Of a stretch of DNA of 31,596 bases, positions 3,238 through 25,045 are shown one piece after another (position 1 is the first letter of the stretch; the number at the start of each line of letters is the position of its first letter). Source of the DNA: a virus (taxonomy: Duplodnaviria > Heunggongvirae > Uroviricota > Caudoviricetes > Peduoviridae); the IMG/VR virus record IMGVR_UViG_2565956719_000008; one strand, 5' to 3'. Both the position numbers and the translations under genes were made by a program. The notes under the pieces are model-generated. The model had not been told where the DNA came from and made no database searches. It saw only the letters and a program-made list of their open reading frames with translations.

Positions 3238-3509
3238 GTATTCGTATTGAAATTGGCGAACGTTATGTCGTTACCAGTGACAGCTTTCAGTTTATTCTCC
3301 ACGAGAAAAAGAGAGCGGAAAGCGGTAAAAACGCCGGTCAGGAATGGCTGGCGGTGGTTGGTTATTACCCGAAATTAGGCCAGCTCGTTTCCGGCCTGAT
3401 GCATCACGATATTCTGACCGGAAGCGCAAAATCTTTTGCTGATTTAAACGCGCAGGTTGAGCAACTCAGCAAGCGTTGTTCAGAGGCTTTTGGCTCATAT
3501 GGCCGTTAA
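3234..3509 (+). CDS. Hypothetical early protein (P2 orf83 position)
   Basis: 91 aa; ATG 3234 with GGAG SD; overlaps neighbouring genes at both ends. Confidence 0.6.
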   Translation: MSIRIEIGERYVVTSDSFQFILHEKKRAESGKNAGQEWLAVVGYYPKLGQLVSGLMHHDILTGSAKSFADLNAQVEQLSKRCSEAFGSYGR

Positions 3510-5784
3510 AGCCTCCGGGCGTTTTGTCCCTCCGTCAGCATTTACCGCAGGCACCGGTAAGGCGTTTACCGGTGCTTATGCATGGAACGCGCCACGCGAG
3601 GCTGTCGGGCGCGAAAGACCTCTTACACGTGACGAGATGCGTCAGGTGCAAGGTGTTTTATCCACGATTAACCGCCTGCCTTACTTTTTGCGCTCGCTGT
3701 TTACTTCACGCTATGACTACATCCGGCGCAATAAAAGCCCGGTGCACGGGTTTTATTTCCTCACATCTACTTTTCAGCGTCGTTTATGGCCGCGCATTGA
3801 GCGTGTGAATCAGCGCCATGAAATGAACACCGACGCGTCGTTGCTGTTTCTGGCAGAGCGTGACCACTATGCGCGCCTGCCGGGAATGAATGACAAGGAG
3901 CTGAAAAAGTTTGCCGCCCGTATCTCATCGCAGCTTTTCATGATGTATGAGGAACTCTGCGATGCATGGGTTGATGCGCATGGTGAAAAAGAATCGCTGT
4001 TTACGGATGAGGCGCAGGCTCACCTGTATGGTCATGTTGCTGGCGCTGCACGTGCTTTCAATATTTCCCCGCTCTACTGGAAAAAATACCGTAAAGGACA
4101 GATGACCACGAGGCAGGCATATTCTGCCATTGCCCGTCTGTTTAACGATGAGTGGTGGATTAGTCAGCTTAAAGGCCAGCGTATGCGCTGGCATGAGGCG
4201 TTACTGATTGCTGTCGGGGAGGTCAATAAAGACCGTTCTCCTTATGCCAGTAAACATGCCATTCGTGATGTGCGTGCACGCCGCCAGGCAAATCTGGAAT
4301 TTCTTAAATCGTGTGATCTCGAAAACAGGGAAACAGGCGAGCGCATCGACCTTATCAGTAAGGTGATGGGCAGTATTTCTAATCCTGAAATTCGCCGGAT
4401 GGAGCTGATGAACACCATTGCCGGTATTGAGCGTTACGCCGCCGCAGAGGGTGATGTGGGGATGTTTATCACGCTGACCGCGCCGTCAAAGTATCACCCG
4501 ACACGTCAGGTTGGAAAAGGCGAAAGTAAAACCGTCCAGCTTAATCACGGCTGGAATGATGAGGCATTTAATCCAAAGGATGCGCAGCGTTATCTCTGCC
4601 GTATCTGGAGCCTGATGCGCACGGCATTCAAGGATAATGATTTACAGGTCTACGGTTTGCGAGTCGTCGAGCCACACCACGACGGAACGCCGCACTGGCA
4701 TATGATGCTTTTTTGTAATCCACGCCAGCGTAACCAGATTATCGAAATCATGCGTCGCTATGCGCTCAAAGAGGATGGCGACGAAAGAGGAGCCGCGCGA
4801 AACCGTTTTCAGGCAAAACACCTTAACCGGGGCGGTGCTGCGGGATATATCGCGAAATACATTTCAAAAAATATCGACGGCTATGCACTGGATGGTCAGC
4901 TCGATAACGATACCGGCAGGCCGCTGAAAGACACTGCCGCGGCTGTTACCGCATGGGCGTCAACGTGGCGCATTCCGCAATTTAAAACGGTTGGCCTGCC
5001 GACAATGGGGGCTTACCGTGAACTACGCAAATTGCCTCGCGGCGTCAGCATTGCTGATGAGTTTGACGAGCGCGTCGAGGCTGCACGCGCCGCCGCAGAC
5101 AGTGGCGATTTTGCGTTGTATATCAGCGCGCAGGGTGGGGCAAATGTCCCGCGCGATTGTCAGACTGTCAGGGTCGCCCGTAGCCCGTCGGATGACGTTA
5201 ACGAGTACGAGGAAGAAGTCGAGAGAGTGGTCGGCATTTACGCGCCGCATCTCGGCGCGCGTCATATTCATATCACCAGAACGACGGACTGGCGCATTGT
5301 GCCGAAAGTTCCGGTCGTTGAGCCTTTGACTTTAAAAAGCGGCATCGCCGCGCCTCGGAGTCCTGTCAATAACTGTGGAAAGCTCACTGGTGGTGATACT
5401 TCGTTACCGGCTCCCACACCTTCTGAGCACGCCGCCGCAGTGCTTAATCTGGTTGATGACGGTGTTATCGAATGGAATGACCCGGAGGTCGTGAGGGCGC
5501 TCAGGGGCGCATTAAAACACGACCTGAGAACACCAAACCGTCAGCAAAGAAGCGGAAGCCCGTTAAAAGCGCATGAAATAGCGCCATCGGCCAGACTGAC
5601 CCGGTCGGAACGAATGCAAATTACCCGTATCCGCGTTGACCTTGCTCAGAACGGTATCAGGCCGCAGCGATGGGAGCTTGAGGCGCTGGTGCGTGGCGCG
5701 ACCGTAAATTATGACGGGAAAAAATTCACGTATCCGGTCGCTGATGAGTGGCCGGGATTCTCAACAGTAATGGAGTGGACATGA
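3499..5784 (+). CDS. A: Replication initiation endonuclease A (HUH rolling-circle initiator, P2 gpA-like)
   Basis: 761 aa from ATG 3499 (MAVKASGRF...), which matches the P2 gpA N-terminus as I recall it. ORF-track start 3457 is TTG. HUH motif (TPHWHMM) and active-site tyrosine motif (YIAKYISK) are present. Confidence 0.9.
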   Translation: MAVKASGRFVPPSAFTAGTGKAFTGAYAWNAPREAVGRERPLTRDEMRQVQGVLSTINRLPYFLRSLFTSRYDYIRRNKSPVHGFYFLTSTFQRRLWPRIERVNQRHEMNTDASLLFLAERDHYARLPGMNDKELKKFAARISSQLFMMYEELCDAWVDAHGEKESLFTDEAQAHLYGHVAGAARAFNISPLYWKKYRKGQMTTRQAYSAIARLFNDEWWISQLKGQRMRWHEALLIAVGEVNKDRSPYASKHAIRDVRARRQANLEFLKSCDLENRETGERIDLISKVMGSISNPEIRRMELMNTIAGIERYAAAEGDVGMFITLTAPSKYHPTRQVGKGESKTVQLNHGWNDEAFNPKDAQRYLCRIWSLMRTAFKDNDLQVYGLRVVEPHHDGTPHWHMMLFCNPRQRNQIIEIMRRYALKEDGDERGAARNRFQAKHLNRGGAAGYIAKYISKNIDGYALDGQLDNDTGRPLKDTAAAVTAWASTWRIPQFKTVGLPTMGAYRELRKLPRGVSIADEFDERVEAARAAADSGDFALYISAQGGANVPRDCQTVRVARSPSDDVNEYEEEVERVVGIYAPHLGARHIHITRTTDWRIVPKVPVVEPLTLKSGIAAPRSPVNNCGKLTGGDTSLPAPTPSEHAAAVLNLVDDGVIEWNDPEVVRALRGALKHDLRTPNRQQRSGSPLKAHEIAPSARLTRSERMQITRIRVDLAQNGIRPQRWELEALVRGATVNYDGKKFTYPVADEWPGFSTVMEWT

Positions 5785-6236
5785 TGGCAAAAATTCACGA
5801 GGTAAAGCTGCACGCAAAATATTTTGACCTTGTGCTGGAAGGAAAGAAACGCGCAGAGTTTCGGAAAAATGACCGTAATTATGAGCGCGGGGACACGTTG
5901 ATTTTGCATGAATGGGCGCAGGGTGTGTATACGGGGCGAAAGGTTGAAGCCCGGATAACAGATGTTACTGACCTGTCAGACTGGCTGGAAGATTATGTCT
6001 TGCTAAGTATTGAGCTGCTTAATACAGGCGCATATGAGATTGTGAACTGGAAAGAACTTAGTGAGCGTGGTCTGGTATTCAGAATTAATCATGAAATTAT
6101 GCATCAGCTCGGCCTTGCTGTTATGTATGCACCAGAGACGGGGATGTCTGGCGGGGCAATGGTTGCCACGGATGGAGCATGGAACTATTCAGATGAACAG
6201 ATTGAGCGTGCAAAGCAAAACGGGTGGCTTGGATAA
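5781..6236 (+). CDS. ASCH/DUF3850-like domain protein (predicted RNA-binding PUA-like fold) with uncharacterised C-terminal half
   Basis: ATG 5781 overlaps the A stop (ATGA); GGAG SD 5 nt upstream. N-terminal segment KIHEVKLHAKYFDLVLEGKKRAEFRKNDRNYERGDTLILHEW resembles the DUF3850/ASCH signature from memory. Confidence 0.6.
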   Translation: MMAKIHEVKLHAKYFDLVLEGKKRAEFRKNDRNYERGDTLILHEWAQGVYTGRKVEARITDVTDLSDWLEDYVLLSIELLNTGAYEIVNWKELSERGLVFRINHEIMHQLGLAVMYAPETGMSGGAMVATDGAWNYSDEQIERAKQNGWLG

Positions 6237-6442
6237 TGCACAGAATACCGGGCGAGATACCGCAACATAACACTAAAAATATCAAGCTGATGGCTATTGT
6301 TCACCGTCTACAGCAGATTATGGTCAACGAAAATCTGACGCCTGACGAGCTGGTCGGGTGTGCCGAAATAGTCCGGGATAATTACGGGCGGCTTAATTAT
6401 ATCCGTCAGTCCAGAGTTGCTCCACCGCCACGCAGACTATAG
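6236..6442 (+). CDS. Small hypothetical protein
   Basis: 68 aa from ATG 6236 (ORF-track start 6224 is GTG); overlaps the upstream stop (TAATG). Weak SD. Confidence 0.4.
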   Translation: MHRIPGEIPQHNTKNIKLMAIVHRLQQIMVNENLTPDELVGCAEIVRDNYGRLNYIRQSRVAPPPRRL

Positions 6443-6657
6443 AAAACGCCGTCAGTCTTGAAACTTGTTTTCAGGGCTGGCGGGGTTGAACAACGAGCAT
6501 CGCGAGGCGTTAGTGGTATTGGAACCAATGAGAAAACAAAAAACTCAACGCCTCCCCTCATGTTTGATGGTATGGTCTTGTTTTTAGGTAATGAAGCTTT
6601 ATTCGGGTGACGTGTCTAATATAGCTTTCTGCATGACGTTAGAATGATGATGAGATC

Positions 6658-7260
6658 ATGTTATTAATGAATGAGAAAAAAAGACAAAAATATCTAAAGA
6701 TAATGTTTGAATGTCAAAAGCGACTTGAAACACTTCATGCTTTATCATCTGGAAGGATTGATGGCATTTATTTTCAAGTGTTAATTGAAATGGAGGCGTT
6801 GCAGCTTAGGAAGCTACTAGAGCTCATTGCATTTTCATCTCTAATTTCACATGAAAAAGCATACGAGAAGGTTACAAAGAAGATTGATGGTGTATGGAAG
6901 GCGAAGAATATATTTAAAGAGTTGGAAAAGATAAACCCTAACTTTTATCCAGTACCAATATCAGGAGTAACCAAAACGGGCTGGACGAAACTAACGGGAG
7001 GTTTTTTGACGAAAAAACAGTTTATCAAGCTATATGATGAATGCTCAAAACATATTCACGTAAGGAACCCATATCGGGTTAGGGAAAACTCGCTGGGGTT
7101 TCATAAAAAAGTTCCAGAGTATTTATCAAGAATTGAAACTCTACTGTTAAAGCACATTGTTTCTCTTGCCGGGAATGAAGAACTTCTTCTTGTAGATGTG
7201 CCTCATTATGAAGACTCTGTAACAGCTATAAAAATGAGCCACCTCGTTAAAATGGGGTGA
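6658..7260 (+). CDS. AT-rich cargo ORF of unknown function in the tin/old hotspot position (candidate defence/abortive-infection protein)
   Basis: 200 aa, Lys-rich, visibly AT-rich compared with flanking phage genes. Sits between the replication module and cos, where P2 carries tin and old. No Walker A motif, so not Old-like. Contains a weak R-x6-H pattern (RENSLGFH). Confidence 0.7.
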   Translation: MLLMNEKKRQKYLKIMFECQKRLETLHALSSGRIDGIYFQVLIEMEALQLRKLLELIAFSSLISHEKAYEKVTKKIDGVWKAKNIFKELEKINPNFYPVPISGVTKTGWTKLTGGFLTKKQFIKLYDECSKHIHVRNPYRVRENSLGFHKKVPEYLSRIETLLLKHIVSLAGNEELLLVDVPHYEDSVTAIKMSHLVKMG

Positions 7261-7296
7261 AAAATAAGCAATAAATAGTCGATTCTAGTGAACGGT

Positions 7297-7320
7297 CGGC
7301 TATTTTTAGCCGGATTTTTA
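7297..7320 (+). terminator. Weak intrinsic terminator candidate downstream of the cargo ORF
   Basis: Hairpin CGGCTA-tttt-TAGCCG (7297..7312) followed by GATTTTTA. Confidence 0.3.
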
Positions 7321-7478
7321 TACTGTTTCCCCTTAATTACAGTCGTTTCTATTCATGCATGTGCTATTGCATCGAATTGCATGCGTTTTCATCCCCTGTT
7401 GCTTATGAGCGTTGTCAGTGCTGGCGCATTCTCGGTATGTTCATGCAACTGCATCAAAATCGCCCCATGAAGCGGGCG

Positions 7479-7497
7479 GGCGAGGCGGGGAAAGCAC
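7479..7497. other. cos site (19-nt cohesive-end sequence, P2 type)
   Basis: GGCGAGGCGGGGAAAGCAC matches the P2 cohesive-end sequence as I recall it. Located immediately beyond the Q (portal) end of the packaging module, as in P2. Confidence 0.8.
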
Positions 7498-7666: not shown

Positions 7667-8701
7667 TCAGCCGTTGTCAGTGTCCAGTGAGTAGTTTTTA
7701 AAGCGGATGACCTCCTGACCGAGCCAGCCGTTTATCTCGCGGATCCTGTCCTGTAGCGGGATAAGCTCATTGCGGACAAAGACCTTTGCCACTTTCTCAA
7801 TATCACCCAGCGACCCGACGTTCTCCGGCTTGCCGCCCATCAACTGAAAGGGGATGCGGTGCGCGTCCAGCAGGTCTGCGGCACTGGCTTTTTTGATATT
7901 AAAAAAATCGTCCTTCGTCGCCACTTCACTGAGCGGGATAATTTTAATGCCGTCGGCTTTTCCCTGTGGGGCATAGAGAAACAGGTTTTTAAAGTTGTTG
8001 CGGCCTTTCGACTTCACCATGTTTTCGCGAAGCATTTCGATATCGTTGCGATCCTGCACGGCATCGGTAACGTACATGATGTATCCGGCATGTGCGCCGT
8101 TTTCGTAATACTTGCGGCGGAACAGCGTGGCCGACTCATTCAGCCAGGCAGAGTTAAGGGCGCTGAGATATTCCGGCAGGCCGTACAGCTCCTGATTAAT
8201 ATCGGGCTCCAGCAGGTGAAACACGGAACCGGGCGCGAAGGCTGTCGGCTCGTTGAAGGACGGCACCCACCAGTAAACATCCTCCTCCACGCCACGGCGG
8301 GTATATTTTGCCGGTGAGGTTTCCAGTCTGATGACCTTACCGGTGGTGCTGTAACGCTTTTCCAGAAACGCATTACCGAACACCAGAAAATCCAGCACAA
8401 AGCGGCTGAAATCCTGCTGGGAAAGCCACGGGTGCGGGATAAACGTTGAAGCCAGAATATTACGTTTGACGTAAATCGGTGAGCTGTGATGCACGGCAGC
8501 ACGCAGACTTTTTGCCAGACCGGTAAAGCTGACCGGTGGCTCATACCATCTGCCGTTACTGATGCATTCGACGTAATCCAGAATGTCACGGCGGTCGAGT
8601 ACCGGCACTGGCTCACCAAAGGTGAATGCCTCCATTTTCGGGGCGCTGGCGGTCATTTTTTTTGCCGCAGGTTGCTGTGTTTTCCCTTTTTTCTTGCTCA
8701 T
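7667..8701 (-). CDS. Q: Portal protein (P2 gpQ-like)
   Basis: 344 aa; ATG at 8701..8699 overlapping the P stop. N-terminus MSKKKGKT... and length match P2 Q as recalled. Confidence 0.9.
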   Translation of the reverse strand: MSKKKGKTQQPAAKKMTASAPKMEAFTFGEPVPVLDRRDILDYVECISNGRWYEPPVSFTGLAKSLRAAVHHSSPIYVKRNILASTFIPHPWLSQQDFSRFVLDFLVFGNAFLEKRYSTTGKVIRLETSPAKYTRRGVEEDVYWWVPSFNEPTAFAPGSVFHLLEPDINQELYGLPEYLSALNSAWLNESATLFRRKYYENGAHAGYIMYVTDAVQDRNDIEMLRENMVKSKGRNNFKNLFLYAPQGKADGIKIIPLSEVATKDDFFNIKKASAADLLDAHRIPFQLMGGKPENVGSLGDIEKVAKVFVRNELIPLQDRIREINGWLGQEVIRFKNYSLDTDNG

Positions 8702-10473
8702 CAGTAAAACTCCAGAATGGTGGATGTCAGCGGGGTGCTGATACCGGCGGTGAGTGGCTCATTTAACAGGGCGTGCATGGTCGCCCAGGCGAGGTCGGCG
8801 TGGCTGGCTTCCTCGCTGCGGCTGGCCTCATACGTGGCGCTGCGTCCGCTGCTGGTCATGGTCTTGCGGATAGCCATAAACGAGCTGGTGATGTCGGTGG
8901 CGCTGACGTCATATTCCAGACAGCCACGGCGGATAACGTCTTTTGCCTTGAGCACCATTGCGGTTTTCATTTCCGGCGTGTAGCGGATATCACGCGCGGC
9001 GGGATAGAACGAGCGCACGAGCTGGAACACGCCGACACCGAGGCCGGTGGCATCAATACCGATGTATTCGACGTTGTATTTTTCGGTGAGTTTGCGGATG
9101 GATTCCGCCTGAGTGGCAAAGTCCATGCCTTTCCACTGGTGACGCTCAAGTATTCTGAATTTGCCACCGGCTACCACCGGTGGTGCCAGTACCACGCATC
9201 CGGCGCTGTCGCCACGGTGTGACGGGTCGTAACCAATCCATACCGGGCGGGAGCCGAACGGATTGGCGGCAAACGGCGCGTAGTCTTCCCATTCTTCCAG
9301 CGTGTCGACCATGCAGCGTTGCAGCTCCTCGAACGGGAACACTGACGCCTTGTCGTCAACAAATTCACACATGAACAGGTTTTTAAAATCGTCGGCGCTG
9401 TTTTCGCGTTTGAGCTGCTCAATGTCGAACAGCGTGCAGCCGCCTTTCAGCGCGTCCTCAATGGTGACAATCTGCCGCCACTGGCCGTCCGCACAGAGAA
9501 GCCCACCGGCAAGGGCGTTATGACTGACGTCGATTTCCACGCGTTCGGCGGCGCTGGCGCGTCCCCGGTTGAACAGTTCACCCGACCAGAACGGGTAGGC
9601 GTCGTGCGCCAGCGTGGACGGGGTGGAGAAATAGGTCGAACGCAGGTGACTCTGTGAGGCCATACCTGATGCCACCTTACGCAGTACCTGAAAATTCGGG
9701 ATCCAGAAAATCTCGTCGACGTACAGGTCGCCGTTATGGCTCTGTGCGGTGTTGGAGTTGGTGCCGAGAAAAATCAGTTTTGCGCCGTTATTGCCCAGGA
9801 CAATCGGGTCACCGGTCAGGTCAACGTCAACCAGCCGGGCAAAGGCGATGATGTATTCGCGGAACACATACGCCTGCGTTTTACTGGCCGACAGAAAAAT
9901 CTGGTTATGACCGGTTTTCAGGGCGCGCAGCAGCGCCTCGCGGGAAAAATAAAACGTTGCGCCAATCTGGCGGGATTTCAGGATATCGCGGATGCGGTGC
10001 TCAAGCCCGGCGCGATACCAGTGCAACTGATAGTCGAAAGACTGCTCAAAGAAAATCTGCTCCAGCTTTTCGATGGCCTCGTCACTGAAAAAATTCTTTT
10101 TCGGTTTGCGCCGCCCGCCTTTGTTGCGGTTAGCGACGTTCGGATTAAGGTCTGCCTCGTTGCCGGTCTGGCTGTAACGGTTGACCCGTGCCAGTCGTTC
10201 AATCTGGCGTCCCAGCAGGTCAATTTCCTTGAAGTCACCGCCGGTTTTCTGCGGTTTGATGATGAGCTGGGTCAGTCGCGCTTCCAGACTCATTTCGACA
10301 CGGCTGATGGGGGCAACGCTGTCCCAGCCGTCGCGCTGTTTCCAGCTCTGCACCGTCGGGCGTTTCATCTGCAACATGGCGGCAATCTGCGGCACGGAAA
10401 ACCCCTGCCAGTACAGCAGCGCCGCCTGACGACGCGGGTCGTGTAAAAGAGTGGTGTCTGTGGTGATGGTCAT
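8701..10473 (-). CDS. P: Terminase large subunit / ATPase (P2 gpP-like)
   Basis: 590 aa from ATG at 10473..10471 (MTITTDTTLL...) with GAGG SD; ORF-track start at 10503 is TTG. Divergent from O, as in P2. Confidence 0.9.
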   Translation of the reverse strand: MTITTDTTLLHDPRRQAALLYWQGFSVPQIAAMLQMKRPTVQSWKQRDGWDSVAPISRVEMSLEARLTQLIIKPQKTGGDFKEIDLLGRQIERLARVNRYSQTGNEADLNPNVANRNKGGRRKPKKNFFSDEAIEKLEQIFFEQSFDYQLHWYRAGLEHRIRDILKSRQIGATFYFSREALLRALKTGHNQIFLSASKTQAYVFREYIIAFARLVDVDLTGDPIVLGNNGAKLIFLGTNSNTAQSHNGDLYVDEIFWIPNFQVLRKVASGMASQSHLRSTYFSTPSTLAHDAYPFWSGELFNRGRASAAERVEIDVSHNALAGGLLCADGQWRQIVTIEDALKGGCTLFDIEQLKRENSADDFKNLFMCEFVDDKASVFPFEELQRCMVDTLEEWEDYAPFAANPFGSRPVWIGYDPSHRGDSAGCVVLAPPVVAGGKFRILERHQWKGMDFATQAESIRKLTEKYNVEYIGIDATGLGVGVFQLVRSFYPAARDIRYTPEMKTAMVLKAKDVIRRGCLEYDVSATDITSSFMAIRKTMTSSGRSATYEASRSEEASHADLAWATMHALLNEPLTAGISTPLTSTILEFY

Positions 10474-10646
10474 GAATACCTCGCCGTGATGAATACACGG
10501 CAAGGCTACTGAGTCGCGCCCCGCGATTCGCTAAGGTGCTGTTGTGTCAGTGATAAGCCATCCGGGACTGATGGCGGAGGATGCGCATCGTCAGGAAACT
10601 GATGCCGACATGTGACTCCTCTAATCACTATTCAGGACTCCTGACA

Positions 10647-22111: not shown

Positions 22112-22639
22112 ATGCAGCATTTAAAAAATATAAGGTCAGGAAATCCGAAAACCATTGAACAATATCAACTAACAAAAAAATTCGACGTTATCTGGTTATT
22201 TTCAGAGGATGGAAAAAACTGGTATGAAGAGGTAAAGCATTTTCAGGAAGACACAATAAAGATTGTTTACGATGAGAATAATATTATTGTCGCCATTACC
22301 AAAGATGCATCAACGCTTAATCCAGAGGGGTTCAGCGTCGTTGAAGTCCCTGATATTACCGCCAACCGACGAGCTGATGACTCAGGTAAATGGATGTTTA
22401 AGGACGGTGCCGTGATTAAGCGGATTTATACGGCAGACGAACAGCAGCAACTGGCGGAGTCAAAAAAGGCAGCTTTGCTTTCCGAAGCTGAATCCGTGAT
22501 TTTGCCACTGGAGCGCGCTGTCAGGCTGAACATGGCAACAGATGAGGAGCGTAGCCGACTGGAAGCATGGGAACGCTACAGTGTTCTGGTCAGCCGTGTG
22601 GATCCTGCAAATCCTGAATGGCCGGAAATGCCGCAATAA
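22112..22639 (+). CDS. G: Tail fibre assembly chaperone (P2 gpG-like)
   Basis: 175 aa directly downstream of H; AT-rich like the H 3' end. Confidence 0.85.
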
Positions 22640-22661
22640 GTGATATGATCTCTTGTGTTAG

Positions 22662-22748
22662 TTAACATAGCTATAGTACAGAGTAAGGCCTAATCTGACA
22701 GTCCGCTCTGTGCTAGGAGCGGACATTATCAACATCATGCTATGTTAA
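22662..22748. other. Nested inverted-repeat structure immediately downstream of G
   Basis: Outer inverted repeat TTAACATAGC (22662..22671) / GCTATGTTAA (22739..22748) enclosing a perfect hairpin GTCCGCTC-tgtgctag-GAGCGGAC (22701..22724). No U-tract follows. Confidence 0.4.
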
Positions 22749-22964
22749 TGTATAAAGTGAAGATAAATTGATATAATAAGGCCACCATGAATATTTCAGA
22801 ACCTTGTCAAAAGGTTTGCACATACTCTAGTCTTGCAATGTGTAGTTGATAGTTCCACTGAGGAGGTTCTTCGACATTCTTTATAAAAATGTATATTTTC
22901 ATCAATAATAAGAGGTAAAAGGGCTTTAATAGTTTTTTGTGGATGTTATTTCTACTCATAAATT

Positions 22965-22993
22965 TTGAGATAAGTATTGAGTTGAGATAAAGT
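22965..22993 (+). promoter_or_regulatory. Candidate sigma70 promoter with direct repeats upstream of the Z/fun cargo ORF
   Basis: Direct repeats TTGAGATAA at 22965..22973 and 22982..22990. TTGAGA (22965..22970) as -35, 17-bp spacer, TAAAGT (22988..22993) as -10; ATG at 23029. Confidence 0.3.
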
Positions 22994-23028
22994 TAAACTC
23001 GTTAAATTCACCTTTAAAAGGATAAAGC

Positions 23029-23556
23029 ATGGACTGGAAAGATCTTGCATCAACTGCTGTGTATACAGGTATGACTGATGAAAATGAAAGCATATGGGAA
23101 CGTGTTGATGGGGTTGACGTTGCCTTCATAGGTGCCTTTCTTACTGCGCACTTGAGCCTTGAAAAGTATATTACTGATTATCTTGGATTAAGATATCCTT
23201 CGTTAGCTTGGGGTGATGCAAAACTCACATTTTCACAAAAAATAGCTTTAATACAACATGAGCCTGCAAAACCCCCTTATGATGAAATATATTTAAGAAT
23301 AAAAGACTTTAACAGCATAAGAAATAAAATCAGTCATCAATTGAATTATCAGATTACGGATAAAGAAAAAAGTAAGTTTGTGGACTTCTACATGAAGATT
23401 ACTAAAGCCAGTAAAACCAAACCAAATATTGATATTGATAACATGGCAGATTTGTTGGGTTTTTTCGTATCGATGACAAAATCCTATTTTGCTAGTGCTA
23501 TTTCTTATTATCACTATAATAAAAAGGTTGCAGGTAAAAGTAATAAAATTGATTAA
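23029..23556 (+). CDS. AT-rich cargo ORF in the Z/fun hotspot position; HEPN-like R-x4-H motif (candidate abortive-infection/defence RNase)
   Basis: 175 aa; AAGGA SD 7 nt upstream. Visibly AT-rich against the flanking tail genes. Motif R98-N-K-I-S-H103 (nt about 23320..23337) matches the HEPN R-x4-6-H signature with the typical Asn after Arg. No adjacent partner ORF. Confidence 0.7.
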   Translation: MDWKDLASTAVYTGMTDENESIWERVDGVDVAFIGAFLTAHLSLEKYITDYLGLRYPSLAWGDAKLTFSQKIALIQHEPAKPPYDEIYLRIKDFNSIRNKISHQLNYQITDKEKSKFVDFYMKITKASKTKPNIDIDNMADLLGFFVSMTKSYFASAISYYHYNKKVAGKSNKID

Positions 23557-23731
23557 TGAAACTGGACTTAGGGATAATTAATATATAGACGTTCTATCAT
23601 TTTTAGAGTGTGCGGCAGCTCCATACATTCATGCGGATGTCAGCACCTCGCTCAAAGCAGACAGTCAGATTTGATAGCGTTTGGACTATGTAAATAGTCA
23701 GTTGGAAAATGAGTGAGTACAAATCAGGACA

Positions 23732-23757
23732 GGCGGGCGAATTGCCCGCCTTTTCTT
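23732..23757 (+). terminator. Rho-independent terminator upstream of FI
   Basis: GGCGGGC-gaatt-GCCCGCC followed by TTTTCTTTAT. Confidence 0.6.
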
Positions 23758-23854
23758 TATCTGTTGTTTCATCCACTGACCAGCCAGGTCAAATAGCGTC
23801 TCATGCTCTGCACAACAGAAAATAGTTGCACCCATTAACCACGGAGTTAAACGG

Positions 23855-25045
23855 ATGAGTGACTATCATCACGGCGTGCAGGTGCTGGAGATTAACGACG
23901 GCACCCGCGTCATTTCCACCGTATCCACTGCCATTGTCGGCATGGTCTGCACGGCCAGCGATGCGGATGCGGAAACCTTCCCCCTCAATAAACCTGTGCT
24001 GATTACCAATGTGCAGAGCGCAATTGCAAAGGCCGGTAAAAAAGGCACGCTGGCGGCATCGTTGCAGGCTATCGCCGACCAGTCAAAACCGGTCACCGTT
24101 GTCGTGCGTGTGGAAGACGGCACCGGCGACGACGAGGAAACGAAACTCGCGCAGACCGTTTCCAATATCATCGGCACCACCGACGAAAACGGTCAGTACA
24201 CCGGACTGAAAGCCCTGCTGGCGGCGGAGTCGGTAACCGGTGTTAAACCGCGTATTCTCGGCGTGCCGGGACTGGACACCAAAGAGGTGGCTGTTGCACT
24301 GGCATCAGTCTGTCAGAAGCTGCGCGCTTTCGGGTATATCAGCGCATGGGGCTGTAAAACCATTTCCGAGGTGAAAGCCTACCGTCAGAATTTCAGCCAG
24401 CGTGAGCTGATGGTCATCTGGCCGGATTTCCTCGCATGGGATACGGTCAGCAGCACCACCGCCACCGCGTATGCCACCGCCCGTGCGCTGGGTCTGCGCG
24501 CTAAAATCGACCAGGAGCAGGGCTGGCATAAAACGCTGTCCAACGTCGGGGTAAACGGTGTTACCGGCATCAGCGCATCTGTATTCTGGGATTTGCAGGA
24601 GTCCGGCACCGATGCTGACCTGCTTAACGAGTCAGGCGTCACTACGCTGATTCGCCGCGACGGTTTCCGATTCTGGGGTAACCGTACCTGCTCTGATGAC
24701 CCGCTGTTCCTCTTTGAAAACTACACCCGCACCGCGCAGGTGATGGCCGACACGATGGCTGAGGCGCACATGTGGGCGGTGGACAAGCCCATCACCGCAA
24801 CGCTGATTCGCGACATCGTTGACGGCATCAATGCCAAATTCCGTGAGCTGAAAACAAACGGCTATATCGTGGATGCGACCTGCTGGTTCAGCGAAGAATC
24901 CAACGATGCGGAAACCCTCAAGGCCGGAAAACTGTATATCGACTACGACTATACACCGGTGCCTCCTCTTGAAAACCTGACCCTGCGCCAGCGTATTACC
25001 GATAAATACCTGGCAAATCTGGTCACCTCGGTTAACAGCAATTAA
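23855..25045 (+). CDS. FI: Tail sheath protein (P2 gpFI-like)
   Basis: 396 aa; ACGGAG SD. Position and length as P2 FI. Confidence 0.9.
   Translation: MSDYHHGVQVLEINDGTRVISTVSTAIVGMVCTASDADAETFPLNKPVLITNVQSAIAKAGKKGTLAASLQAIADQSKPVTVVVRVEDGTGDDEETKLAQTVSNIIGTTDENGQYTGLKALLAAESVTGVKPRILGVPGLDTKEVAVALASVCQKLRAFGYISAWGCKTISEVKAYRQNFSQRELMVIWPDFLAWDTVSSTTATAYATARALGLRAKIDQEQGWHKTLSNVGVNGVTGISASVFWDLQESGTDADLLNESGVTTLIRRDGFRFWGNRTCSDDPLFLFENYTRTAQVMADTMAEAHMWAVDKPITATLIRDIVDGINAKFRELKTNGYIVDATCWFSEESNDAETLKAGKLYIDYDYTPVPPLENLTLRQRITDKYLANLVTSVNSN

What the first reader, a model, noticed from the sequence alone, without database searches (positions are those of the whole stretch)
6443..7330. AT-rich single-gene cargo (200 aa) in the tin/old hotspot position
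The 6658..7260 ORF is visibly AT-rich and Lys-rich, lies exactly where P2 carries tin and old, and is followed by a weak terminator (7297..7320). It lacks a Walker A motif, so it is not Old-like. A possible promoter (TTGATG at 6564..6569, GGTAAT at 6587..6592) lies upstream. The placement implies a lysogen-expressed superinfection-exclusion or abortive-infection gene of unknown family. A loose R-x6-H pattern (R142..H149) is weak evidence only.
Basis: partly seen in the sequence, partly recalled or inferred. Interest (0 to 1): 0.8.

Follow-up and report, generated by a model that had tools for sequence, protein, structure and literature searches.

The report
Untested mobile gene in P2 hotspot
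A P2-type phage carries, in its known anti-phage cargo slot, one AT-rich gene from a large uncharacterised protein family that also travels as integron cassettes and phage inserts; it is a reasonable but unproven defence candidate, perhaps an unusual RNA-cutting enzyme.

Summary
Window 6515 to about 7400 is a 0.85-0.9 kb AT-rich insert (GC 0.36 vs 0.525). It lies between the replication gene gpA and the portal gene gpQ of a P2-like phage, next to cos (7479-7497). It holds one gene, most likely 6667-7260 (197 aa), followed by a moderate terminator.

The protein is soluble and under strong purifying selection. It has no match in Pfam, NCBIfam or PADLOC; only the unannotated phrog_13799 matches. 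Rousset 2022 lists it as 'hypothetical' hotspot cargo, and no study I could search had tested it.

New findings:
- The family is large: 2,270 clusters at 50% identity.
- It always occurs as a lone gene, with GC below its surroundings.
- It moves on several platforms: P2 hotspots, siphovirus tail-module inserts and, for the ~50%-identical marine clade, integron cassettes.
- Its neighbours are not enriched for defence genes.

The AlphaFold model (pLDDT 86) has HEPN-like topology. An invariant Glu lies in helix 2 and a near-invariant His lies at the end of helix 3. The defining Rx4-6H motif and all sequence similarity to HEPN families are absent.

Best guess (about 0.35): a stand-alone, HEPN-like, abortive-infection-type effector. 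The function remains unproven.

The parts
6445..6514 (+). Conserved left junction of the hotspot. It includes a 15-bp hairpin at about 6445-6487.
   Evidence: It is 90-93% identical in P2, Wphi and other Peduovirus genomes, and homology ends at about 6514-6520. The hairpin has dG -27 to -31 kcal/mol, z = -4.0, and 0 of 200 shuffles fold as well. It has no U-tract.
6515..6666 (+). Cargo-specific AT-rich upstream region; presumed promoter and 5'UTR, unproven.
Evidence: No + strand site passes the sigma-70 scan. The region is not conserved in the Enterobacter or E. chuandaensis copies.
6667..7260 (+). CDS of 197 aa (alternative in-frame start at 6658 gives 200 aa). Soluble protein of an uncharacterised family (phrog_13799; WP_021519103.1 / YP_010107813.1).
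   Evidence: dN/dS is 0.07-0.14 against other P2-borne copies. The AlphaFold model has pLDDT 86 and pTM 0.85. There is no transmembrane segment.
7296..7320 (+). Intrinsic-terminator-like hairpin followed by a U-run.
   Evidence: 7 bp stem with 4 G-C pairs, then ATTTTTAT. dG is -11.8 kcal/mol and z = -3.1.
7321..7444 (.). Variable right junction of the cargo. Homology with other P2-like phages resumes between about 7368 and 7444, depending on the phage.
7479..7497 (+). P2 cos cohesive-end sequence GGCGAGGCGGGGAAAGCAC. It lies next to the hotspot and is context, not cargo.
   Evidence: Exact match located. The identity of the sequence as P2 cos is from my own knowledge. Rousset 2022 describes the hotspot as cos-proximal.

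Best explanation
Shown:
- Window 6515 to about 7400 is a horizontally acquired single-gene module in the gpA-gpQ (old/tin) hotspot of a P2-like phage that is near-identical to Yersinia phage vB_YpM_50 and to prophages in 20 of 5,426 complete E. coli genomes.
- It encodes a 197-aa soluble protein under purifying selection.
- The family is large, uncharacterised and always a lone gene. It moves between P2 hotspots, siphovirus tail-module insertion sites, integron cassette arrays and conjugative or plasmid DNA.

Inferred:
[quoted passage not shown] - I propose that the prophage expresses it and that it acts inside the cell as a stand-alone nuclease, probably a metal-independent RNase.
- A superinfecting phage would switch it on and the infection would abort. 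It would need no protein partner and no RNA antitoxin, because the gene occurs as a bare ORF in integron cassettes.

The anatomy is about 0.95 certain. The confidence given applies to the full mechanism.
For: Hotspot cargo:
- The protein is listed in the Rousset 2022 P2 hotspot catalogue.
- The same slot in Enterobacter P2-like prophages holds the 76%-identical homologue.
- Priors from the literature: 6 of 8 randomly chosen unknown P4 hotspot loci gave protection, and machine learning predicts 15-32% of unknown P2 hotspot proteins to be antiviral (PMC13586616).

Real, selected gene:
- dN/dS is 0.07-0.14.
- There are 2,270 family representatives at 50% identity.

Autonomous single gene:
- No neighbour recurs in 25 genome loci or in 80 metagenome loci.
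- The marine clade consists of one-ORF integron cassettes. The ATG lies 8-9 nt after the R' core, and the stop codon lies inside the R'' core.

Insert behaviour:
- The gene is an AT-rich insert between the tail-chaperone and tape-measure genes in the siphovirus contigs L045 and L046.
- Its GC is below that of the flanks in 38 of 44 metagenomic loci.

Fold and residues:
- AlphaFold model with pLDDT 86.
- Residue counts in 121 members: E52 121, H131 120, R48 120, R19 119, H163 120, N134 118.
- This matches the published HEPN description: catalytic His at the end of helix 3, acidic residue in helix 2, insert between helices 2 and 3.

Other:
- An MmeI-type restriction-modification enzyme lies near the homologue in three unrelated lineages.
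Against: - No Rx4-6H motif is conserved.
- No Pfam HEPN family is hit by the query or by any of 121 members.
- Profile searches of the PDB find nothing.
- hhalign against a canonical HepS-like HEPN family gives probability 0.1%.
- Foldseek finds no significant structural match (best E = 1.4).
- There is no PADLOC hit.
- Neighbours of the environmental clade are mostly housekeeping genes. Only 2 of 145 are DNA methyltransferases, and one homologue sits inside a hopanoid gene cluster.
- Only about 10 viral contigs carry it, against more than 483 metagenomic hits.
- There is no convincing promoter.
- A basic charge is not a family trait.
- A constitutive RNase without an antitoxin would be expected to be toxic.
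Confidence: 0.35

Rival explanations
1. It is a phage-defence gene, but the mechanism is not HEPN-type RNA cleavage. The helical core would be a generic scaffold, and the conserved E/R/E/H/N/H residues would serve another activity, such as another hydrolase, nucleotide or NAD-related chemistry, or binding and blocking a phage protein.
For: Hotspot position and literature priors. Many invariant polar residues point to an enzyme. All sequence-based HEPN tests fail. Foldseek finds no significant relative, so the alpha+beta arrangement may be new.
Confidence: 0.2
2. It is a non-defence accessory or selfish gene. Examples are a stress or dormancy factor, as Anantharaman et al. proposed for integron-borne HEPN cassettes, a toxin-like addiction element, or a host-fitness gene that happens to ride on mobile DNA, including the P2 hotspot.
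For: Neighbours of the environmental majority clade are overwhelmingly housekeeping genes with no defence-island enrichment. Integron cassettes and P2 hotspots also carry non-defence cargo such as partition systems and cytolethal distending toxin. Rousset validated only 3 of 8 additional P2 candidates. Machine learning predicts only 15-32% of unknown P2 proteins to be antiviral. One E. coli genome carries the gene disrupted by ISApl1.
Against: The gene recurs at classic phage insertion and hotspot sites in at least three phage types. It lies next to MmeI restriction-modification genes in three phyla. Strong purifying selection and persistent horizontal spread fit conflict-related genes.
Confidence: 0.28
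3. It is a counter-defence gene that helps the carrying phage or mobile element overcome host immunity.
For: It is carried by phages and by conjugative or plasmid DNA. It is small, single-gene and fast-moving.
Against: Most copies are in bacterial chromosomes and integron arrays rather than in phages. In P2 it sits in the lysogen-expressed accessory slot, not in an early lytic operon. So many invariant catalytic-type residues across 2,270 clusters is unusual for inhibitor proteins.
Confidence: 0.08
4. It is a spurious ORF in AT-rich non-coding filler.
For: Weak ribosome-binding site and no clear promoter.
Against: Full-length homologues occur in thousands of clusters. dN/dS is 0.07-0.14. The fold prediction is confident. 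Only the CDS is conserved between lineages, while the flanks are not.
Confidence: 0.01

Closest known systems
AbiV (Lactococcus abortive-infection HEPN RNase; PDB 9bj5-9bj7)
   Same: About 200 aa, soluble, encoded by a low-GC gene (the GC statement is from my own knowledge). It has a four-helix HEPN core with extra helices and a beta-hairpin. It is the top, non-significant, Foldseek hit. Its authors note that R and H are not strictly conserved in the AbiV family.
   Different: No sequence similarity and no Pfam HEPN_AbiV hit. Foldseek E = 1.4 and TM 0.24. AbiV has 91-RNHKSKH-97 and is held in check by the abiV2 RNA in a type III toxin-antitoxin-like arrangement. This family travels as a bare ORF with no room for such a partner.
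HepT/MNT-associated HEPN toxins (for example 7ae2, 5yep, 8xdj)
   Different: Those are 130-140 aa, have a canonical Rx4H motif, and are always paired with an MNT antitoxin. Here there is no partner, no motif, a 55-residue insert and a C-terminal beta-sheet.
'Integron cassette HEPN' family (PDB 3jrt; Anantharaman et al. 2013)
   Same: A HEPN-type protein carried as an integron cassette in Gammaproteobacteria. The marine clade of this family is also cassette-borne.
P2 Old and Tin, and Rst_DUF4238 (validated cargo of the same gpA-gpQ hotspot)
   Same: Same locus next to cos. Rst_DUF4238 and Tin are, like this gene, single-gene cargo.
   Different: No Walker A or TOPRIM domain as in Old, no DUF4238 domain, and no PADLOC hit. 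The phenotype is untested.
HK97 gp15-type phage inserts (morons; from my own knowledge)
   Same: In L045 and L046 a homologue is an AT-rich insert between the tail-chaperone and tape-measure genes, the site I recall for the HK97 gp15 superinfection-exclusion insert.
   Different: gp15 is a small membrane protein. This protein is soluble and unrelated.

Membership tests
HEPN superfamily | Four-helix up-down bundle made of two alpha-hairpins | tested here: met
   AlphaFold model: helices 3-27/36-59 and 116-130/142-161. The helical core aligns to HEPN structures. Definition taken.
HEPN superfamily | [quoted passage not shown] | tested here: met
   Residues 60-115 form two short helices (63-73 and 79-89) plus a beta-hairpin (96-108). 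Definition.
HEPN superfamily | [quoted passage not shown] | tested here: not met
   H131 (120 of 121 members) sits at the right place, but positions 125-127 hold no conserved Arg or Lys. The K/R155-x7-H163 pattern is only 93 of 121 and has the wrong spacing.
HEPN superfamily | Conserved acidic residue in helix 2 | tested here: met
   E52 in 121 of 121 members and E41 in 117 of 121. Both lie on the same helix face as R48.
HEPN superfamily | Significant sequence or profile similarity to a recognised HEPN family | tested here: not met
   No Pfam hit for the query or for 121 members. PDB profile searches are empty. hhalign against the HepS-like family gives probability 0.1%.
HEPN superfamily | Structural similarity clearly above that to generic helical bundles | tested here: inconclusive
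HEPN superfamily | Metal-independent RNase activity; catalytic residues juxtaposed in a dimer | not testable with these tools
   Needs biochemistry, a multimer model or a crystal structure.
P2 gpA-gpQ (old/tin) hotspot cargo | Lies between gpA and portal gpQ next to cos, and is variable among otherwise syntenic P2-like phages | tested here: met
   Present in 20 of 5,426 complete E. coli genomes. Listed in Table S5 of Rousset 2022.
P2 gpA-gpQ (old/tin) hotspot cargo | Confers resistance to other phages | not testable with these tools
   Not in the tested sets of Rousset 2022, the two integron-defence screens or DefensePredictor.
Known defence-system proteins (PADLOC-DB v2.0) | Match to a defence-protein profile | tested here: not met
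   0 families at E<=1.
OLD-family nuclease | Walker A ATPase plus TOPRIM domain | tested here: not met
   No Walker A motif and no Pfam domains.
Integron gene cassette | Single ORF bounded by attC sites with R''/R' core sequences | tested here: not met
   Not met for the window copy, whose flanks show no attC and which has its own terminator. Met for the ~50%-identical marine clade (L003, L004, L014-L025).
Phage moron (inserted accessory gene) | Compositionally distinct insert between conserved phage genes, with its own terminator | tested here: met
   GC 0.36 vs 0.525. Terminator confirmed. Its own promoter is not demonstrated.

The most novel reading that the evidence does not exclude
This gene could be the first recognised member of a new, very widespread single-protein anti-phage family (more than 2,000 clusters across several phyla). 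It would be built on a HEPN-type scaffold with a non-canonical catalytic set (E41/R48/E52, H131-x2-N134, H163), would need no partner, and would shuttle between integron cassette arrays and temperate-phage hotspots.
Probability: 0.25. Interest if true: 0.7.

Novelty: new variant of a known kind. Interest (0 to 1): 0.5.

Why it matters
The P2 gpA-gpQ hotspot is a proven source of new anti-phage systems, and about a fifth of P2-like phages carry only unknown genes there. This gene belongs to a family with no curated model anywhere. It is compact (197 aa), autonomous, strongly conserved at a handful of catalytic-type residues, and spread over thousands of clusters.

If it defends, it would add a minimal single-protein system. 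It would also add a non-canonical active-site variant to the HEPN-type toolkit.

It would also document direct gene flow between integron cassette arrays and phage defence hotspots, two reservoirs that have so far been studied separately. The word 'integron' does not occur in the 2026 paper on exchange of P2 and P4 hotspot cargo.

If it does not defend, it is a useful caution. Hotspot position alone over-predicts defence.

Tried and rejected
- **Curated libraries:** Pfam, NCBIfam and PADLOC gave nothing for the query. Pfam gave nothing for 121 diverse members.
- **PDB sequence and profile searches:** only a chance hit to a plant zinc-finger protein at E > 1.
- **Foldseek:** nothing significant against the PDB or BFVD. 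The AFDB library was unavailable.
rejected, because the Arg is not conserved.
not supported.
- **Fusion partners in longer family members:** heterogeneous and uninformative. There is one transmembrane N-terminus and a few CxxC stretches.
- **Conserved partner gene or RNA:** none found.
- **Defence-island enrichment among neighbours of the environmental clade:** not found.
- **attC remnants around the window copy:** none seen.
- **Relatedness to the window's other cargo gene (23029..23556):** none.
- **Literature:** no mention of the protein's accessions or motifs in the integron-defence screens, DefensePredictor, or the 2024 and 2026 hotspot papers. The supplements of two of these papers were not held, so absence there is not proof.
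- **The search for related loci with the broad alignment A2:** failed because no stretch was conserved enough.

Full report
**1. The observation.**
The window is a P2-like (Peduovirus) genome. The 888-nt region is 99.9% identical to Yersinia phage vB_YpM_50 and 99-100% identical to prophages in 20 of 5,426 complete E. coli genomes.

The gene order is:
- gpA, 3457..5784
- an ASCH/DUF3850 ORF, 5748..6236
- a small ORF, 6224..6442
- the target ORF
- the cos sequence, 7479-7497
- portal Q, 7667..8701 (-)
- terminase P, 8701..10503 (-)

The ORF 6658..7260 is real. Its GC is 0.357 against 0.525 for the window, and GC3 is 0.33 against 0.55 in gpA. Only the second P2 hotspot, at about 22.6-23.3 kb, is as AT-rich. 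Lys is 12.5%, pI is 9.5, and there is no Walker A motif.

The hairpin at 7296-7313 followed by a U-run is a moderate intrinsic terminator (dG -11.8 kcal/mol, z = -3.1).

- The start is most likely ATG 6667 (197 aa). RefSeq, phrog_13799 and all homologues begin there.
- The proposed promoter matches 8 of 12 positions, fails the scan, and lies in DNA that is not conserved in related copies.
- The R142 of the 'R-x6-H' pattern is not conserved.

**2. Anatomy of the module.**
Homology to other P2-like phages ends at about 6514-6520, after a conserved 70-nt element that contains a strong hairpin. It resumes between about 7368 and 7444. The variable cargo is therefore about 0.85-0.9 kb and holds only this gene.

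Between the E. coli, Enterobacter and E. chuandaensis versions only the CDS is conserved, and both flanks are unrelated. dN/dS is 0.07-0.14, although dS is near saturation. This is a selected protein-coding gene that has been placed in the hotspot with different regulatory DNA each time.

The protein has no transmembrane segment (maximum KD19 1.15).

**3. What is known about it.**
Pfam, NCBIfam and PADLOC give nothing. Only phrog_13799, of unknown function, matches (1.8e-109).

The exact protein, WP_021519103, is in Table S5 of Rousset et al. 2022, the catalogue of P2 gpA-gpQ loci. It is listed as 'DUF3850/ASCH + hypothetical (+ hypothetical)' and is not in their tested set. I found no mention of it in the integron-defence screens, DefensePredictor, or the 2024 and 2026 hotspot papers, as far as the text and supplements were held.

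**4. The family.**
A word-indexed search found 44 clusters in Gammaproteobacteria. The exhaustive profile search found 2,270 representatives at 50% identity, 1,505 of them at E<=1e-10. Most are stand-alone proteins of about 200 aa.

In a 121-member alignment reaching down to 26% identity, the near-invariant polar residues are:

| Residue | Members with it (of 121 unless stated) |
|---|---|
| Y9 | 118 of 118 |
| R19 | 119 |
| E41 | 117 |
| R48 | 120 |
| E52 | 121 |
| N90 | 109 |
| H131 | 120 |
| N134 | 118 |
| H163 | 120 |

The structural motif NPxFYPxP is also conserved. Longer members carry no informative fused domain.

**5. Where it lives.**
- **P2-like prophages.** In Enterobacter and in IMG/VR contigs, copies that are 72-76% identical occupy the same gpA-gpQ slot, alone or beside other cargo. 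Those phages carry Pycsar, GmrSD or HNH genes in another hotspot.
- **Siphoviruses.** In contigs L045 and L046 a 30%-identical homologue (GC 0.30 against 0.51) sits between the tail-chaperone and tape-measure genes. In L047 it follows the distal tail genes.
- **Integron cassettes.** The ~50%-identical marine clade occurs in Pseudomonas, Shewanella, Marinobacter, Halomonas, Neptuniibacter, Marinomonas and others.
  - The 5' boundary is conserved: GTTAAACGGTAAAGC followed by the ATG. The stop codon lies inside the R'' core (GTT-TAA-C), and an attC hairpin follows.
  - L025 is an array of more than 20 cassettes.
- **Elsewhere.** It is a lone, relatively AT-rich gene among unrelated genes.
  - Its GC is more than 3 points below the flanks in 38 of 44 metagenomic loci.
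  - No neighbour recurs in 25 genome loci or 80 metagenome loci.
  - An MmeI-type IIG restriction-modification enzyme is nearby in three unrelated lineages, and a T5orf172-domain gene is nearby in two.
  - In a less biased pool of 145 immediate neighbours from 66 loci, only 2 are DNA methyltransferases. Three are T4SS coupling proteins and 2 are RepA. The rest are housekeeping genes. One homologue lies inside a hopanoid cluster.
  - Viral contigs are a small minority: about 10, against more than 483 metagenomic hits.

The robust association is with mobile platforms, not with defence islands.

**6. Fold and possible mechanism.**
The AlphaFold2 model is confident (pLDDT 86, pTM 0.85). Its elements are helices 3-27 and 36-59, an insert (helices 63-73 and 79-89 plus a beta-hairpin at 96-108), helices 116-130 and 142-161, and then three strands.

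Against the published definition of HEPN, the family meets these features:
- the two-hairpin topology
- the characteristic insert between helices 2 and 3
- a near-invariant His exactly at the end of helix 3
- an invariant acidic residue in helix 2

It does not meet the Rx4-6H motif, and it has no sequence or profile similarity to any HEPN family. That includes hhalign against the canonical HepS-like family encoded elsewhere in this same window (probability 0.1%). Families that keep the His but have lost the Arg are documented.

E41, R48 and E52 lie on one face of helix 2. I could not obtain model coordinates, so I did not test whether these residues cluster in three dimensions.

**7. Interpretation.**
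The anatomy is secure: single-gene, horizontally acquired hotspot cargo from an uncharacterised, widespread and highly mobile family.

The function is inferred. The most likely reading (about 0.35) is a stand-alone, intracellular, HEPN-like nuclease that acts as an abortive-infection-type defence. It would work without a partner, because the gene exists as a bare ORF in integron cassettes.

Rival readings:
- a defence gene with a different chemistry (0.20)
- a non-defence accessory or selfish gene (0.28)
- a counter-defence gene (0.08)
- a spurious ORF (0.01)

Literature priors cut both ways:
- 6 of 8 unknown P4 hotspot loci gave protection.
- Only 3 of 8 additional P2 candidates did so in 2022.
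- Machine learning predicts 15-32% of unknown P2 proteins to be antiviral.

**8. Verdict.**
Its interpretation is plausible but unproven, and its two mechanistic hints (the promoter and the R-x6-H pattern) do not hold.

New here are:
- the size of the family
- the integron-cassette and siphovirus-insert contexts
- the lack of any partner gene
- the lack of defence-island enrichment
- a specific, testable active-site hypothesis

Interest is moderate. This is a good, inexpensive candidate for a phage-challenge experiment, but it is one of many unknown cargo genes in a hotspot that is already well known.

Noticed in passing
window 23029..23556 (+), inside the AT-rich patch at about 22640-23850: The second P2 hotspot (the Z/fun position, between tail-fibre assembly gene G, 22112..22639, and sheath gene FI, 23855..25045) holds a 175-aa ORF with a canonical HEPN motif, IRNKISH. 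Its family profile matches the solved defence nuclease HepS (9oij, E = 0.015) across that motif, and its His aligns with the residue mutated in the HepS-H105A structure (9oik). It has no Pfam family. It is probably a HepS-like HEPN defence gene.
   Followed up: partly
window 6445-6487: The conserved left boundary of the hotspot folds into a 15-bp hairpin (dG -27 to -31 kcal/mol, z = -4.0, 0 of 200 shuffles fold as well) with no U-tract. The 70-nt element is about 92% identical in P2, Wphi and other Peduovirus genomes. It may be the end of the early operon or a recombination boundary.
   Followed up: partly
window 5748..6236 and 6224..6442: Two semi-conserved ORFs lie between gpA and the cargo: an ASCH/DUF3850 + DUF7415 protein (a putative RNA-binding fold) whose start overlaps the end of gpA, and a 72-aa ORF (phrog_11386). 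Both are of unknown function. Rousset 2022 lists them as part of the 'locus', but they appear to be a conserved phage backbone.
   Followed up: no
L038 4216-5629 (NZ_CM196105, E. coli ApSLC23): In one E. coli genome the target gene is interrupted after about 64% of its length by an ISApl1 insertion.
   Followed up: partly
L025 1-16570 (Marinobacter sp. BW6): A chromosomal integron array of more than 20 cassettes with two or three attC sequence types. Almost all cassettes are small ORFs of unknown function.
   Followed up: partly
L009 19654-20594; L010 19801-20594; L011 19832-20594: Enterobacter P2-like prophages that carry the homologue also carry known defence genes just after tail gene S: an HNH_5 protein, Pycsar (PycTM plus cyclase) and GmrSD. 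This looks like a further hotspot.
   Followed up: no
L030 8001-11620 (Acidobacteriota MAG); also L028 and L033: A distant homologue lies about 200 bp upstream of an MmeI-type IIG restriction-modification gene. The same enzyme family is within 4-7 kb in two other phyla. In L029 and L033 a T5orf172/MUG113-domain gene and a small ORF lie just upstream.
   Followed up: partly
L003-L036 and L052-L131 (family-wide): The gene's GC is below that of its flanks in almost every host, from Enterobacteriaceae to Acidobacteriota (for example 0.46 against 0.70 in Halomonas). Why such a widespread family stays low-GC everywhere is unexplained.
   Followed up: partly
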